From a virus, in the IMG/VR virus record IMGVR_UViG_3300027907_000002, positions 6,752-70,751 of that record: 64,000 nucleotides of DNA. One strand, given 5' to 3'. The position numbers and the translations under genes are program-made. Shown here one piece after another: positions 21,028-22,432 of the stretch. Position 1 is the stretch's first letter, and each line of letters opens with the position of its first letter. The notes beneath the pieces were generated by a model. That model worked only from the letters and a program-made list of their open reading frames with translations. It did not search any database and had not been told where the DNA came from.

Positions 21028-21153
21028 TTGGTTTCCTTTCGTTTAGAGAACTCCATTTCTAGCTAATGCTACTCCAAGTATTATTCCTAGTAACACTAGA
21101 AGAAGCGCGACTATTACTATTACAACGTCTTCGTTTTTCTCGTTATTCATAAG

Positions 21154-21334
21154 GGCCACAGGCAGGATTCGAACCTGCATCTCACAAGAAAGAAACAGTG
21201 AGAAGAACGTCTCAACGACTGATCATCTTATTACTCTCAGGCTTATAGGCTAGCTCCACTCCTGAGCCACTGCTTACTTGCTAGCTTTCCTTTGAGGTCT
21301 TACCTTGGCTTATCCTTTAGAAACGACTGTGACC
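21154..21334 (-). ncRNA. tRNA-like RNA with a large insertion in place of the anticodon loop (tmRNA-like layout)
   Basis: GGTCACAG/CTGTGGCC acceptor, D-like arm, GCAGG-TTCGAAT-CCTGC T-arm; 181 nt. Confidence 0.65.
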
Positions 21335-21340
21335 ATAAAA

Positions 21341-21622
21341 GGGTAGGGCGCACTAGGGTACCGTCTCGCGTCAAGTCATGTACTTGAATATAGTCAGAGC
21401 CTAACCACGAAAGTGTTGCGCCCATAAAGGGAAGGGGTGCTGAGTCACAGTAGACAATTACACGCTCTCACCTACTGCTACTAATCAGAACAGCGTCCTG
21501 TTCTCACTACCACCGTGTCGTGATAGATCCAGCTACCCCATAACTTGAAGGGACCGATCCGGCCTTACCCTATTACTCTCGAAAGACGCTATGGCGGGGT
21601 GACTCCGACGATCTTTGGTCCC
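21341..21622 (-). ncRNA. three tandem acceptor-stem-closed RNA units (21346-21423, 21434-21539, 21550-21622)
   Basis: Stems GGGCGCA/TGCGCCC, GGGGTAGCTG/CAGCACCCC, GGGACC/GGTCCC, each preceded by TTAT. Confidence 0.55.
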
Positions 21623-21631
21623 ATAACTTGT

Positions 21632-21808
21632 CTAGATACTTGACTCATCAATAACTACGTATCTAGATATAATTACCTTGCCATATTCGGGACTCATATA
21701 AGCAATGCTTTCGATTACTGCGGCTAGTCCCCTTTCTTGGAGTTTACCATTTAACAAACACTCCAACTCTTTCCTGTCGTCGTCGTTAGCAAATGTAATC
21801 ACAAACAT
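21632..21808 (-). CDS. 58-aa hypothetical protein inside the RNA cluster
   Basis: AAAGGAG then MFVITFANDDDRKELECLLNGKLQERG...DESSI*; below the track cut-off. Confidence 0.55.
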   Translation of the reverse strand: MFVITFANDDDRKELECLLNGKLQERGLAAVIESIAYMSPEYGKVIISRYVVIDESSI

Positions 21809-21828
21809 TATTTTGCTCCTTTCTAAAT

Positions 21829-21886
21829 TGGTGGCAGGGCGAGCGAATTATGTTTGAACGCTCGGGCTAGCTAGCGCAACCCTGCC
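21829..21886 (-). ncRNA. mini-tRNA-like RNA with encoded ACCA
   Basis: TTAT|GGCAGGG...CGAGCG-TTCAAACATAATT-CGCTCG-CCCTGCC-ACCA. Confidence 0.65.
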
Positions 21887-21894
21887 ATAAGAGA

Positions 21895-22062
21895 GGCCGC
21901 GAACTCCTCTTTCGAGGCAGACAACGGAGGTCTGTGTCTGTGATACCTTCGCGGCCAACTTGAGGCCAAACGATTCGCATGACGATAGAGCCGCTATAGC
22001 CTATATGTCCTTGCTCTAACAGGGCCATCACTGGCGATCCCAACATACTCTTCGTTTGGCCT
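21895..22062 (-). ncRNA. two tandem stem-closed RNA units (21895-21956, 21963-22062)
   Basis: Perfect closing stems GGCCGCGAA/TTCGCGGCC and AGGCCAAACGA/TCGTTTGGCCT. Confidence 0.55.
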
Positions 22063-22063
22063 A

Positions 22064-22117
22064 TGGACAGGCCGGGAATTGAACCCGGAAGCGCCTCCTT
22101 AGACCACTAACCTGCCC
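22064..22117 (-). ncRNA. anticodon-less mini-tRNA-like RNA
   Basis: GGGCAGG / TTAG-TGGT-CTAA / CCGGG-TTCAATT-CCCGG / CCTGTCC-A; 54 nt. Confidence 0.7.
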
Positions 22118-22121
22118 GTAA

Positions 22122-22198
22122 GAAGCTCCCTCTCAACGTCAACCTATCTCCTAGTCACGCGTGAACCGTACATAGGTATATAGTGATACCGGAGCTTC
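22122..22198 (-). ncRNA. stem-closed RNA unit
   Basis: GAAGCTCC/GGAGCTTC; fills the gap between the mini-tRNA and tRNA-Asn. Confidence 0.5.
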
Positions 22199-22199
22199 A

Positions 22200-22271
22200 C
22201 TGACCCCCTGGGATTCGAACCCAGAACTTCCACATTAACAGTGTGGCACTCTACCATTGAGTTAGGGGCCA
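22200..22271 (-). tRNA. tRNA-Asn (GTT)
   Basis: Full cloverleaf: TGGCCCC/GGGGTCA, ACTC/GAGT, CCACA-CTGTTAA-TGTGG, CTGGG-TTCGAAT-CCCAG; G73; CCA not encoded. Confidence 0.93.
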
Positions 22272-22274
22272 ACA

Positions 22275-22351
22275 GAGAGATCCACCCCACCATCCCAGAT
22301 GGGTTCCAGAGCTCGTAATTGGCATTCCTGGATTAACTTCGTGGATCTCTC
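22275..22351 (-). ncRNA. stem-closed RNA unit between the two tRNAs
   Basis: 11-bp perfect stem GAGAGATCCAC/GTGGATCTCTC, 2-3 nt from each tRNA. Confidence 0.55.
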
Positions 22352-22353
22352 AA

Positions 22354-22432
22354 TGCCGCAGGAAGGACTCGAACCTACCTAGCCGAAGCAACTGATTTAC
22401 AGTCAGCTTGACATCCCCGTGTCATCTGCGGC
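22354..22432 (-). tRNA. tRNA-Tyr (GTA), atypical D-arm
   Basis: GCCGCAG/CTGCGGC-A, GCTGA-CTGTAAA-TCAGT, long variable arm, TTCGAGT loop. Confidence 0.8.

What the first reader, a model, noticed from the sequence alone, without database searches (positions are those of the whole stretch)
21153..22432. Array of diverse small RNAs built like tRNA precursors, interleaved with real tRNAs
Seen: on the minus strand, 21829-22432 is tiled by 8 units separated by only 1-8 nt (tRNA-Tyr, 22275-22351, tRNA-Asn, 22122-22198, 22064-22117, 21963-22062, 21895-21956, 21829-21886), and 21153-21622 by 4 more. Each non-tRNA unit is 54-181 nt, is closed by a 6-11 bp GC-rich helix joining its ends, and has a different interior. 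Counting the satellite groups, eight units start TTAT|G, three end in NCCA and several end in TCCCA, TCCC, TACCC or TTCCC. Established: bacterial RNase P favours U(-1)/A(-2), G(+1), an acceptor-like helix and 3' NCCA. Inference: the phage uses host tRNA maturation to cut about 17 stable RNAs with different cargo out of its transcripts. Possible roles are decoys for tRNA-targeting defence, protein sponges, RNA anti-CRISPRs or antisense guides. I know no named system with this layout.
Basis: partly seen in the sequence, partly recalled or inferred. Interest (0 to 1): 0.9.

Follow-up and report, generated by a model that had tools for sequence, protein, structure and literature searches.

The report
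Phage array of tRNA-precursor-like small RNAs
An uncultured soil phage packs about 17 small folded RNA units, each closed by its own ends like a tRNA precursor, around its two real tRNA genes; the layout is real and matches the long-known but still unexplained "stable RNAs" of the tRNA gene clusters of phages T5 and T4.

Summary
On the minus strand ARAGORN finds only tRNA-Tyr and tRNA-Asn. Around them lie 17 further units of 36-181 nt, and each is closed by its own ends in the minimum-energy fold. The tiling of eight end-closed units at 22432-21832 is the genome's unique maximum; 0 of 56 whole-genome dinucleotide shuffles exceeded a chain of five. Eight units follow TTAT|G, and three non-tRNA units carry canonical T-arms. 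Contigs of related soil phages gain, lose or replace whole units and small ORFs at module borders.

The interpretation, maturation by host tRNA-processing enzymes, is plausible but untested. No RNA data set was found. Fold z-scores of single units are not significant on their own.

The claim that no known system has this layout is wrong. RefSeq T5 annotates seven "stable RNAs with unknown functions" abutting its tRNAs, and most folded ones are closed by their ends, two with NCCA tails. T4 has rnaC and rnaD. There is no sequence homology to either.

Verdict: a real new variant of a known, functionally unexplained kind. Earlier notes of this scan describe similar arrays on other phage DNA.

The parts
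22354..22432 (-). tRNA-Tyr (GUA), no encoded CCA
   Evidence: ARAGORN. Rfam tRNA 31.1 bits in E-value mode.
22275..22351 (-). u2: 77-nt unit with an 11-bp closing helix and two inner hairpins, 2 nt after tRNA-Tyr
   Evidence: Fold -34.4 kcal/mol, z -4.4, 0 of 200 shuffles as stable. Member of the 8-unit chain. The X7 relative carries about 290 extra nt between this unit and tRNA-Tyr.
22199..22272 (-). tRNA-Asn (GUU), no encoded CCA
   Evidence: ARAGORN. Rfam tRNA 67.4 bits.
22122..22198 (-). u4: 77-nt unit with an 8-bp closing helix, abutting tRNA-Asn
   Evidence: Closed by its ends, but z is only -1.4. Replaced together with u5 by 187 other letters in the X5 and X6 relatives.
22064..22117 (-). 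u5: anticodon-less mini-tRNA with a 7-bp acceptor (G3:U70), discriminator A, a D-like hairpin and a canonical T-arm
   Evidence: Matches the two ends of the Rfam tmRNA model at 20.9 bits, E 5e-6, below the gathering score. tRNA model 21.1 bits. T-arm found by the motif scan.
21963..22062 (-). u6: 100-nt unit with an 11-bp closing helix
   Evidence: Fold -39.9 kcal/mol, z -4.2. Present in all 4 laid runs.
21895..21956 (-). u7: 62-nt unit with a 9-bp closing helix
   Evidence: z -4.0. The X7 and X11 relatives carry 5 inserted nt at 21930-21933, inside a predicted loop. These insertions would frameshift the only long ORF across u6-u8.
21829..21886 (-). u8: minihelix-like unit with a 7-bp helix stacked on a 6-bp hairpin with a 13-nt loop, TTAT|G leader and encoded ACCA tail
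   Evidence: z -3.0. Leader and tail. Followed by AGAAAGGAG and then the ATG of ORF 21808-21632.
21632..21808 (-). 58-aa ORF with a strong Shine-Dalgarno sequence, splitting the array
   Evidence: ORF list. Absent together with u9 in the X7 relative (skip 21540->21824). No relative found in IMG/VR.
21550..21622 (-). u9: 73-nt unit with a 6-bp closing helix and TTAT|G leader
   Evidence: Closed by its ends, but z is only -0.9. This is the weakest unit.
21434..21539 (-). u10: 106-nt unit with a 5+4-bp closing helix around a bulge, three inner hairpins, TTAT|G leader and TTCCC tail
   Evidence: z -3.7. Of the three variant letters shown in relatives, one keeps a pair (A-U to G.U), one breaks a pair and one lies in a loop.
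21346..21423 (-). u11: 78-nt unit with a 7-bp closing helix, TTTAT|G leader and TACCC tail
   Evidence: Closed by its ends; z about -1.0. Exactly this unit plus one spacer is absent in the X7 and X11 relatives (skip 21343->21433).
21153..21334 (-). u12: 181-nt tRNA-like RNA with an 8-bp acceptor-like helix, canonical T-arm, D-arm-like segment and a large insert
   Evidence: Rfam tRNA 19 bits, E 0.98, with a 70-nt insert. T-arm found by the motif scan. z -1.1.
20729..20797 (-). S1: satellite unit with a 9-bp closing helix, TTTAT|G leader and GCCA tail
20647..20722 (-). S2: satellite unit, a long irregular hairpin rich in G.U pairs, with TTTAT|G leader and TCCCA tail, followed by the SD and ORF 20628-20413
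   Evidence: Minus-strand fold -35.0 against plus-strand -21.1 kcal/mol. In the X7/X11 variants there is one double compensatory change (G-C to A-U) and three G.U to Watson-Crick changes. Three further changes break pairs next to indels, and three fall in unpaired positions.
20310..20405 (-). S3 (36-nt hairpin, 20370-20405) and S4 (second anticodon-less mini-tRNA, 20310-20364: 7-bp acceptor, 6-bp T-stem, discriminator A)
   Evidence: Rfam mascRNA-menRNA 23.9 bits, E 0.45, below threshold. T-arm found by the motif scan. Fold.
25410..25644 (-). c1-c3: tRNA-free cluster of three end-closed units (25576-25644 with TCCCA tail; 25508-25570 with TTTAT|G leader and ACCA tail; 25410-25504 with TCCC tail), directly upstream of the SD of ORF 25394-25032
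   Evidence: RNALfold z -7.1 for 25582-25399.

Best explanation
These are genes for small structured non-coding RNAs embedded in the early, leftward polycistronic transcripts of an uncultured 70.7-kb soil or rhizosphere phage. They are of the same kind as the 'stable RNAs' of the T5 and T4 tRNA clusters.

Proposed mechanism, all of it inferred:
1. Each unit folds co-transcriptionally into a compact module whose 5' and 3' ends form an acceptor-like GC-rich helix.
2. Host RNase P cuts 5' of the G that opens the helix. The leader is ...A(-2)U(-1)|G(+1) in 8 of 17 units.
3. The A/U-rich spacer after the helix or its NCCA/CCC tail (...CCA-UUUAU|GG) is cut by RNase E or RNase Z-type enzymes and trimmed by 3' exonucleases, as for neighbouring tRNAs.
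4. The products would be two tRNAs, about 17 nuclease-resistant RNAs with different interiors, and short mRNAs that begin just upstream of strong Shine-Dalgarno sites.

Shown here: the modules, their strand, their tiling, the junction motif, T-arms in three units, and turnover by whole modules in relatives.

Not shown: transcription, cleavage sites, stability and any trans-acting function.
For: - Tiling of 8 end-closed units is unique in the genome and was not reached by 0 of 56 shuffles.
- All 17 units are closed by their ends. The minus-strand fold is more stable than the plus-strand fold in 13 of 17 units, summing to -535.9 against -463.1 kcal/mol, as expected for G.U-containing RNA helices on the tRNA strand.
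- Junction motif: TTAT|G precedes 8 of 17 units. Seven of the 23 genomic TTATGG sites are unit starts within 1.3 kb.
- Canonical T-arms followed directly by a 7-8-nt acceptor 3' strand occur in u5, u12 and S4. These plus tRNA-Asn are the only 4 such hairpins on the minus strand.
- Not coding: there is no SD before the unit-internal ATGs. The only long ORFs are a 59-aa frame crossing three units, which 5 inserted nt in relatives would frameshift, and a 49-aa frame crossing u2, tRNA-Asn and u4.
- Relatives in 4 laid soil or rhizosphere runs differ by whole modules. All 6 joints reported lie within a few nt of unit or ORF-cassette borders, and the X7 deletion 21540->21824 recreates a TTTAT|GG junction.
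- In S2 the variant letters include one double compensatory change and three G.U to Watson-Crick changes.
- Precedent: annotated T5 stable RNAs abut tRNAs at 0-4 nt. RNAIII, RNAI, RNAIV, RNA2 and RNA3 fold closed by their ends; RNAI ends GCCA and RNA3 ends UACCA; three T5 junctions read CAAT| with A-2 and U-1. T4 rnaD and rnaC follow tRNA-Arg at 1 and 6 nt, and rnaC has a T-arm.
- RNase P preferences come from passages of PMC11143913.
Against: - There is no RNA evidence at all.
- Five of 10 units have unremarkable fold z-scores (-0.9 to -3.0), and windows with z at or below -3.5 occur about 1.8 per kb on both strands.
- Unit borders were chosen by eye, so 'closed by its ends' and the TTAT count are partly circular.
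- The two real tRNAs and units u2-u7 lack the TTAT leader, and only 3 of 17 units have a true NCCA tail.
- Most units have no T-loop. [quoted passage not shown]
- Covariation support is thin. Only 40 of 121 variant positions were displayed, and in S2 three changes break predicted pairs next to indels, as does one in u10.
- The host, and hence its RNase P type, is unknown.
- There is no sequence homology to T5 or T4 RNAs.
Confidence: 0.55

Rival explanations
1. The units are cis-acting mRNA punctuation and stability elements, not trans-acting RNAs. They would mainly be processing signals and protective end structures that cut the long early transcript into separately stable cistrons, like RNase III sites between T7 early genes or tRNA punctuation in mitochondria. 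The excised RNAs would then be by-products.
For: Every cluster ends within about 25 nt of a strong SD (AGAAAGGAG-type) and an ORF start: u8 before ORF 21808, u12 before the ATG at 21150, S2 before ORF 20628, S4 before the ATG near 20292, and c3 before ORF 25394. Satellites occur singly or in twos and threes between ORFs. The 3' strand of c3's closing helix can alternatively pair with the downstream SD when folded in isolation. The T7 and mitochondrial comparisons are recalled, not from a call.
Against: Six and four non-tRNA units in a row with unrelated interiors are far more than punctuation needs. Three units copy tRNA acceptor and T-arm architecture. In T5 the equivalent RNAs are annotated as stable RNAs. 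Relatives swap units without touching the adjacent ORFs.
Confidence: 0.2
2. The units are decayed tRNA genes: relics of a once larger tRNA array with no present function.
For: They sit in a tRNA cluster. u2 and u4 are tRNA-sized (77 nt). u5, S4 and u12 keep acceptor and T-arm parts, and u12 gives a weak tRNA match with a D-arm. Units are freely lost in relatives.
Against: Closing helices are intact and longer than a tRNA acceptor stem, at 8-13 bp in u2, u4, u6, u7, S1, S2 and c3. Relics would lose pairing first. Eleven or more units show no tRNA similarity even at E up to 10. The shared junction motif and tails and the compensatory change in S2 point to selection.
Confidence: 0.08
3. The units act at the DNA level: inverted-repeat modules such as recombination sites, cassette junctions or MITE-like insertions, whose terminal repeats work in DNA.
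For: Presence or absence of whole modules at their borders among relatives, and short shared junction sequences (CCCTTT(T)AT, CAAGTT(AT), CCAATTT) that could serve as recombination points.
Against: Each unit has different terminal repeats, so there is no multi-copy family. G.U pairs make the folds strand-specific: the minus strand is favoured in 13 of 17 units, and the chain is 8 units on minus against 3 on plus. T-arms and NCCA tails are RNA features. No integrase or transposase family was found among the 20 early ORFs scanned.
Confidence: 0.05
4. Chance: end-to-end stems picked by eye from ordinary intergenic DNA.
For: Helices of 7 bp with at least 5 GC pairs at 45-200 nt distance occur about 3.6 per kb on both strands (233 and 222 in 64 kb). 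A lax definition gives chance chains of 10. z-scores are unremarkable for half of the units.
Against: Under the strict definition the chain of 8 was never approached in 56 shuffles. The motif, the T-arms and the whole-module indels all cluster in the same 2 kb.
Confidence: 0.02

Closest known systems
Phage T5 stable RNAs of the tRNA region (RNAI, RNAIII, RNAIV, RNA2H, and the tRNA-like RNA1, RNA2 and RNA3; RefSeq NC_005859 features T5s01-T5s07)
   Same: They are co-oriented with tRNAs, tiled 0-4 nt from tRNAs and from each other, and interleaved with small ORFs, one of which is annotated with two transmembrane domains. They are 73-172 nt with unrelated interiors. Five of 6 folded are closed by a terminal helix of 5-12 bp. 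RNAI ends GCCA and RNA3 ends UACCA. RNA2 and RNA1 carry T-arms. Three junctions read CAAT| with A-2 and U-1. Their function is unknown.
   Different: There is no sequence similarity (blastn 'distant' of the array against 50,697 phage records hit only tRNAs). T5 has many more tRNAs than stable RNAs, whereas here it is 2 tRNAs to about 17 units. Here several units sit singly just 5' of ORF ribosome-binding sites, and a TTTAT|GG junction with CCC/NCCA tails recurs. The T5 RNAs are annotated as stable RNAs, and I recall, from no call, that they were seen in infected cells. Here nothing is known about expression.
Phage T4 species 1 and species 2 RNAs (rnaC, rnaD; RefSeq NC_000866 T4s001/T4s002)
   Same: They are small stable RNAs of 139 and 119 nt placed 1 and 6 nt after tRNA-Arg at the end of the tRNA cluster. 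rnaC has tRNA-like ends with a canonical T-arm, like u12, u5 and S4. Their function is unknown.
   Different: There are only two of them. In the MFE, rnaD is not closed by its ends. There is no sequence similarity. That RNase P matures them is my recollection and comes from no call.
Other non-tRNA RNase P substrates (pre-4.5S RNA, pre-tmRNA, phage M3 RNA, P1/P7 C4 antisense RNA, hairpin model substrates with RCCA)
   Same: An acceptor-like helix with G+1 and a U-1 leader, with a 3' RCCA tail helping recognition when the tRNA elbow is missing (passages of PMC11143913). u8 and S1 have exactly helix plus NCCA.
   Different: Those are single genes, not arrays. Cleavage of the present units has not been tested.
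tmRNA tRNA-like domain, and mascRNA-type tRNA-like small RNAs
   Same: u5 matches both ends of the Rfam tmRNA model: acceptor with G3:U70, T-arm and discriminator A. S4 gives a sub-threshold mascRNA match. All are anticodon-less acceptor and T-arm mimics.
   Different: Scores are below the gathering thresholds (20.9 against 47 bits; 23.9 against 42.5 bits). There is no mRNA-like domain or pseudoknots. mascRNA is eukaryotic.

Membership tests
Phage tRNA-cluster stable RNAs (T5 RNAI/III/IV/1/2/2H/3; T4 rnaC/rnaD) | Lies in a phage tRNA gene cluster, on the same strand, a few nt from tRNAs or from each other | tested here: met
   Spacers are 0-8 nt around tRNA-Tyr and tRNA-Asn. The satellite groups (20310-20797 and 25410-25644) lie 0.4-3 kb from the tRNAs.
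Phage tRNA-cluster stable RNAs (T5 RNAI/III/IV/1/2/2H/3; T4 rnaC/rnaD) | Non-decoding: not a tRNA by standard detectors, and non-coding | tested here: met
   ARAGORN finds only 2 tRNAs. Rfam gives no hit at gathering score for any unit. There are no SD-led ORFs, and indels in relatives break the longest frame.
Phage tRNA-cluster stable RNAs (T5 RNAI/III/IV/1/2/2H/3; T4 rnaC/rnaD) | Compact fold closed by a terminal helix, with a T-arm or NCCA-like 3' end in some members | tested here: met
   All 17 units are closed by their ends, 3 have T-arms and 3 have NCCA tails. Five of 6 folded T5 RNAs are closed, while T4 rnaD is not.
Phage tRNA-cluster stable RNAs (T5 RNAI/III/IV/1/2/2H/3; T4 rnaC/rnaD) | Accumulates as a discrete stable RNA in infected cells | not testable with these tools
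   No run on record as RNA holds the stretch. The phage is uncultured.
Phage tRNA-cluster stable RNAs (T5 RNAI/III/IV/1/2/2H/3; T4 rnaC/rnaD) | Sequence homology to the T5 or T4 RNAs | tested here: not met
   blastn 'distant' of 21100-22500 against the phage collection gave 6 records, all tRNA matches. The resemblance is therefore by analogy of layout and architecture, not by descent.
Bacterial RNase P substrates | G+1 opening an acceptor-like helix, with U-1 (A-2) in the leader | tested here: inconclusive
   Fifteen of 17 units start with G; u6 starts with A and S3 with T. Eight of 17 have TTAT|G. These are preferences, not requirements (passages of PMC11143913).
Bacterial RNase P substrates | About 12-bp coaxial acceptor/T-stem stack with a T-loop, and/or a 3' RCCA tail | tested here: inconclusive
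   The stack is 7+5, 8+5, 7+6 and 7+6 bp in u5, u12, S4 and u8. NCCA is present in 3 units. Most other units have longer helices, no T-loop and CCC-type tails.
Bacterial RNase P substrates | Cleaved by RNase P at the predicted site | not testable with these tools
   This needs an in vitro or in vivo assay.
tRNA (Rfam RF00005) / tmRNA (RF00023) | Score at or above the gathering threshold; anticodon arm or mRNA-like domain present | tested here: not met
   u5 scores 21.1 bits on the tRNA model and 20.9 bits on the tmRNA model. u12 scores 19 bits on the tRNA model. The gathering scores are 29 and 47 bits.
Self-cleaving ribozymes often found in phage RNA-rich regions (hammerhead, twister, HDV-like, pistol, hatchet) | Match to the Rfam covariance model | tested here: not met
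   No such family appears at E up to 10 in 20900-22700 or at E up to 5 in 16000-30500.

The most novel reading that the evidence does not exclude
The array is a modular, recombination-shuffled library of 'cargo' RNAs. A generic tRNA-precursor shell (closing helix, A-2U-1|G+1 leader, CCC/NCCA tail) would let the phage borrow host RNase P and tRNA 3'-processing to release any folded RNA in stoichiometric amounts. The conserved junctions would double as crossover points, so that phages trade individual RNAs like cassettes. The cargos would act in trans against the host, for example as decoys for tRNA-targeting defence nucleases, as an AlaRS/SmpB-binding tmRNA-end mimic (u5), or as protein sponges. 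The only two real tRNAs are Tyr and Asn. Both carry GUN anticodons, which I recall (from no call) are targeted by some anticodon nucleases.
Probability: 0.15. Interest if true: 0.85.

Novelty: new variant of a known kind. Interest (0 to 1): 0.55.

Why it matters
As far as I know, the stable RNAs of the T4 and T5 tRNA clusters have had no assigned function for about fifty years, and RefSeq still labels them 'unknown functions'. This phage shows the same design in an unrelated soil lineage, taken much further. Non-tRNA units outnumber tRNAs by about 8 to 1. They share a recognisable junction grammar, and they are gained, lost and replaced one module at a time among close relatives. That argues the design is general and selected, not a quirk of coliphages. 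It also gives concrete, short, testable substrates for RNase P, RNase E and CCA-enzyme assays and for expression in a surrogate host. If the cargos prove to act on host defence or translation, this would be a common and overlooked class of phage counter-measures. If they are only processing signals, it would be a bacterial-virus parallel to tRNA punctuation of organelle transcripts.

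Tried and rejected
- Close relatives for covariation. The large terminase, the 58-aa ORF and the 188-aa neighbour as single queries in IMG/VR gave nothing closer than a 99% identical 6.4-kb fragment without the array and a 35% identical homologue.
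- An alignment query gave 80 IMG/VR loci at 30-56% identity. I scanned 60 of the 81 IMG/VR loci then held with ARAGORN; few had tRNAs near the gene and none had a comparable array.
- One 22-mer of u8 gave 0 hits in IMG/VR.
- The single metagenome scan, with a 20-mer, returned only a chance match in a high-GC bacterial contig, L084. That wasted the cap.
- Genome contigs gave 37 loci at 55% partial identity or less, from Planctomycetota, Burkholderiales, Bradyrhizobium and others. This yields no host call.
- No RNA holder was listed for the stretch. That is no evidence either way.
- Read laying displayed only 40 of 121 substitutions and 12 of 31 indels, so covariation could be judged only in part.
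- Statistics rejected as uninformative: the count of 7-bp helices; the lax chain definition; the RNALfold z-scan; and the chain scan of 83 other loci, where long chains occurred in a few loci (possibly GC-rich; GC not measured) and the test is not calibrated across compositions.
- The promoter and terminator scan showed no excess over shuffles: 9 found against 9.9 expected, and 7 against 6.8.
- Pfam on 20 early ORFs and PHROGs on 10 ORFs found no RNA-processing, CCA-adding, ligase, Ro or reverse-transcriptase gene. Most of these ORFs have no family.
- Rejected readings: small ORFs starting at the TTATGG ATGs (peptides of 2-41 aa, no SD, frames broken or deleted in relatives); CRISPR-repeat mimics or ToxI-type repeats (the units are not repeats of each other); self-cleaving ribozymes (no Rfam match); retron ncRNA (only a 16.6-bit RT-19 match at E 3, and no RT found).
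- Literature. Five full-text searches found no open paper on T5 or T4 stable RNAs or on such arrays, so I cannot say what is in print in closed journals. From PMC10690425 I read passages only: it reports tRNA-like candidates among 10,006 viral structured RNAs but describes no array of this kind in those passages. From PMC11143913 I read passages only. Supplements were not consulted.
- Earlier notes of this scan were used as leads. The T5 lead came from them and was checked.

Full report
WHAT THE WINDOW IS. The window is bases 6752-70751 of a 70,751-bp IMG/VR virus record with direct terminal repeats, rated complete. Genes on the minus strand fill 1-30 kb. These are many small ORFs, almost none with a family. 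Structural genes on the plus strand fill 30-64 kb, including a large terminase at 32983-35043 and a major head protein at 41131-42276. Runs that hold the stretch are rhizosphere and soil metagenomes, all DNA. The host is unknown.

THE OBSERVATION. ARAGORN finds two tRNAs in the whole window: tRNA-Asn(GUU) at 22199-22272 and tRNA-Tyr(GUA) at 22354-22432, both on the minus strand. Rfam agrees. Neither tRNA encodes CCA.

Reading the minus strand, the stretch 22432-21829 is tiled by eight modules with 0-8-nt spacers:
- tRNA-Tyr
- u2 (22351-22275)
- tRNA-Asn
- u4 (22198-22122)
- u5 (22117-22064)
- u6 (22062-21963)
- u7 (21956-21895)
- u8 (21886-21829)

A 58-aa ORF with a strong ribosome-binding site follows (21808-21632). 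After it come u9 to u12 (21622-21153), and then another small ORF. Satellite groups lie at 20797-20647 (S1, S2), at 20405-20310 (S3, S4) and at 25644-25410 (c1-c3).

In the minus-strand minimum-energy fold, all 17 non-tRNA units are closed by a helix joining their two ends, with 5-13 contiguous pairs.

IS IT MORE THAN CHANCE? Stability of single units is not convincing.
- Five of ten units tested have z at or below -3.7, but the other five lie between -0.9 and -3.0.
- An RNALfold scan finds 111 and 117 non-overlapping windows with z at or below -3.5 on the two strands of the 64 kb.
- Seven-bp GC-rich helices spanning 45-200 nt occur about 3.6 per kb on either strand.
- A lax unit definition produces chance chains of ten in coding DNA.

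The arrangement, however, is not chance. I used a stricter definition: at least 7 contiguous terminal pairs, weight at least 20, length 50-190 and gaps of at most 10 nt.
- The minus strand has a single chain of eight (weight 186), exactly at 22432-21832.
- The next-best real chains have four units, and the plus strand reaches three.
- In 56 dinucleotide shuffles of the whole strand, the best chain had 2-5 units and weight at most 103.
- Two of the eight are tRNAs. The tRNA-free run u4-u8 (five units, weight 117) exceeds the shuffles in weight but not in number.

Independent signals fall in the same 2 kb.
- Seven of the 23 genomic TTATGG sites on the minus strand are unit starts.
- The only four T-arm-type hairpins on that strand are tRNA-Asn, u5, u12 and S4. 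Each is followed directly by the 3' strand of the closing helix, as in a tRNA.
- Folds are more stable on the minus strand in 13 of 17 units, summing to -535.9 against -463.1 kcal/mol. This is as expected for RNA helices with G.U pairs on the strand of the tRNAs.

CODING IS UNLIKELY. The ATG inside TTATGG opens frames of only 2-41 codons, with no Shine-Dalgarno sequence. The real ORFs nearby all have AAAGGAG-type sites. The longest frame across u6-u8 (59 aa) is hit by 5 inserted nt in two relatives, and u11, which holds the 41-aa frame, is absent in them.

RELATIVES. IMG/VR, the phage isolate collection and the GTDB genomes hold no close relative with this region. The one metagenome scan gave only a chance hit.

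Laying Logan contigs of four soil or rhizosphere runs on 20250-22500 at 80% likeness or more did show relatives. They differ from the window by whole modules:
- u11 plus one spacer is absent (X7, X11: 21343->21433).
- u9 plus the 58-aa ORF is absent (X7: 21540->21824, which recreates an ATTTAT|GGGG junction).
- u4 and u5 are replaced by 187 other letters (X5, X6).
- About 290 extra letters lie between tRNA-Tyr and u2 (X7).
- Three small ORFs are deleted or replaced, again at module edges.

All six joints reported lie within a few nt of a unit or ORF-cassette border. The insertions at 21930-21933 fall in a predicted loop of u7.

Only 40 of 121 substitutions were displayed. Mapped on the folds, they give the following picture:
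- S2 shows one double compensatory change (G-C to A-U) and three G.U to Watson-Crick changes. Three changes fall in unpaired positions, and three break predicted pairs next to indels.
- u10 shows one conservative change, one breaking change and one loop change.
- u2 shows one loop change.

This is suggestive of structural constraint, not proof.

WHAT IT IS. The units are best read as genes for small structured RNAs that share the outer form of a tRNA precursor.
- Three (u5, S4, u12) are outright tRNA-like. u5 matches both ends of the tmRNA model: acceptor with G3:U70, T-arm and discriminator A, at 20.9 bits and E 5e-6, below the gathering score. S4 has the same design with an unrelated sequence. 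u12 has an acceptor, a D-like arm and a T-arm around a large insert.
- u8 and S1 are helix-plus-NCCA minihelix types.
- The others have unrelated multi-hairpin interiors.

No ribozyme, riboswitch or other Rfam family matches even at E up to 5-10.

HOW IT LIKELY WORKS (inferred). The array is transcribed with the early genes. Host RNase P cuts before the G that opens each closing helix. The A/U-rich spacers after the helix or its CCC/NCCA tail are cut and trimmed by the enzymes that finish tRNA 3' ends. Passages of the 2024 JBC review (PMC11143913) confirm several points:
- U-1 is the commonest leader base in many bacteria.
- An A-2U-1 leader stacks in the E. coli holoenzyme structure.
- The 3' RCCA pairs with the ribozyme.
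- Phage RNAs such as M3 RNA and P1/P7 C4 RNA are natural substrates.

Because most units lack a T-loop, cleavage efficiency is the weakest link of this model.

A rival reading also fits the data. Every cluster ends just upstream of a strong ribosome-binding site, so the units may chiefly punctuate and stabilise the mRNAs. The two readings are not exclusive.

COMPARISON WITH WHAT IS KNOWN. Following a lead in earlier notes of this scan, I fetched the annotated T5 and T4 records.

RefSeq T5 annotates RNAIII (30284-30389), RNAI (30394-30500) and RNA1 (30501-30644, 'tRNA-like') directly after tRNA-His. Further on it annotates RNA2H, RNAIV, RNA2 ('tRNA-like') and RNA3. All carry notes such as 'stable RNA with unknown functions', and they are interleaved with tRNAs and small ORFs. 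Folded, they look as follows:
- RNAIII is closed by a 12-bp terminal helix.
- RNAI is closed by 5 bp and ends GCCA.
- RNAIV is closed by a terminal helix.
- RNA2 is closed by 8 bp next to a T-arm.
- RNA3 is closed by 6 bp and ends UACCA.
- Three junctions read CAAT|.

T4 places rnaD and rnaC ('small, stable RNA; species 2/1') 1 and 6 nt after tRNA-Arg, and rnaC has a T-arm.

There is no sequence homology, so membership is by architecture and context, not descent. What differs here:
- The proportion: about 17 units to 2 tRNAs.
- The satellites placed singly before ORFs.
- The recurrent CCC/NCCA-TTTAT|GG junction.
- The direct evidence of unit-by-unit turnover among close relatives.

Earlier notes of this scan report comparable tRNA-shelled or minihelix arrays in other uncultured phages. 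I did not check those.

VERDICT. This is a new variant of a known but functionally unexplained kind. I put about 0.55 on processed stable RNAs of the T5/T4 type, 0.2 on mainly cis-acting punctuation, and the rest on relics, DNA-level elements or chance. The boldest reading not excluded is a shuffled library of trans-acting cargo RNAs released by the host's tRNA machinery, some acting against host defence or translation. I put that at about 0.15.

Noticed in passing
window 25399-25425 (minus strand): The 3' strand of c3's closing helix (CUCCUCC) is complementary to the Shine-Dalgarno GGAGGAG of the next ORF (ATG at 25394). Folded alone, the short segment forms this SD-sequestering hairpin (-13.4 kcal/mol). 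In the full unit the closing helix wins. This could be a processing- or folding-dependent translational switch.
   Followed up: partly
window 22447-22691 and 21043-21152 (minus strand): The small ORFs that flank the array (29, 49 and about 35 aa) look like single-pass membrane peptides, judging by eye from the translations. T5's tRNA region likewise holds small ORFs, one annotated with two transmembrane domains.
   Followed up: no
window 20413-20628, 20803-21027, 21632-21808: Small early ORFs behave as cassettes in related soil phages. They are deleted or replaced by unrelated sequence of 124-259 nt, with breakpoints next to the RNA units.
   Followed up: partly
window 27722-27800, 16532-16581, 13097-13170, 9729-9838 (minus strand): These are very stable long hairpins (RNALfold z -8.3, -7.1, -6.7 and -7.6). 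They differ from the end-closed units by being near-perfect stems of 13-28 bp. The one at 16532-16581 directly follows a stop codon. They may be terminators or processing sites.
   Followed up: no
window 13364-14344 (minus strand): A 326-aa protein with a Prok-JAB domain (Pfam PF14464, E 5.5e-7).
   Followed up: no
window 8062-8586 (minus strand): A 174-aa ORF with a weak, sub-threshold match to ribosome modulation factor (PF04957, 20.1 bits against a cutoff of 27.9).
   Followed up: no
window 23589-24155 (minus strand): A 188-aa protein of unknown function (phrog_11912) with invariant His, Asp and C-terminal CSC residues. It has 338 homologues at E up to 0.001 in metagenomes. Relatives occur in many 40-160-kb IMG/VR phages, and N-terminal halves occur in Planctomycetota and Burkholderiales genomes.
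   Followed up: partly
window 22064-22117 (minus strand): u5 carries G3:U70 and discriminator A73. I recall these as the AlaRS identity set shared by tmRNA and alanine minihelices. Charging with alanine or SmpB binding is untested.
   Followed up: partly
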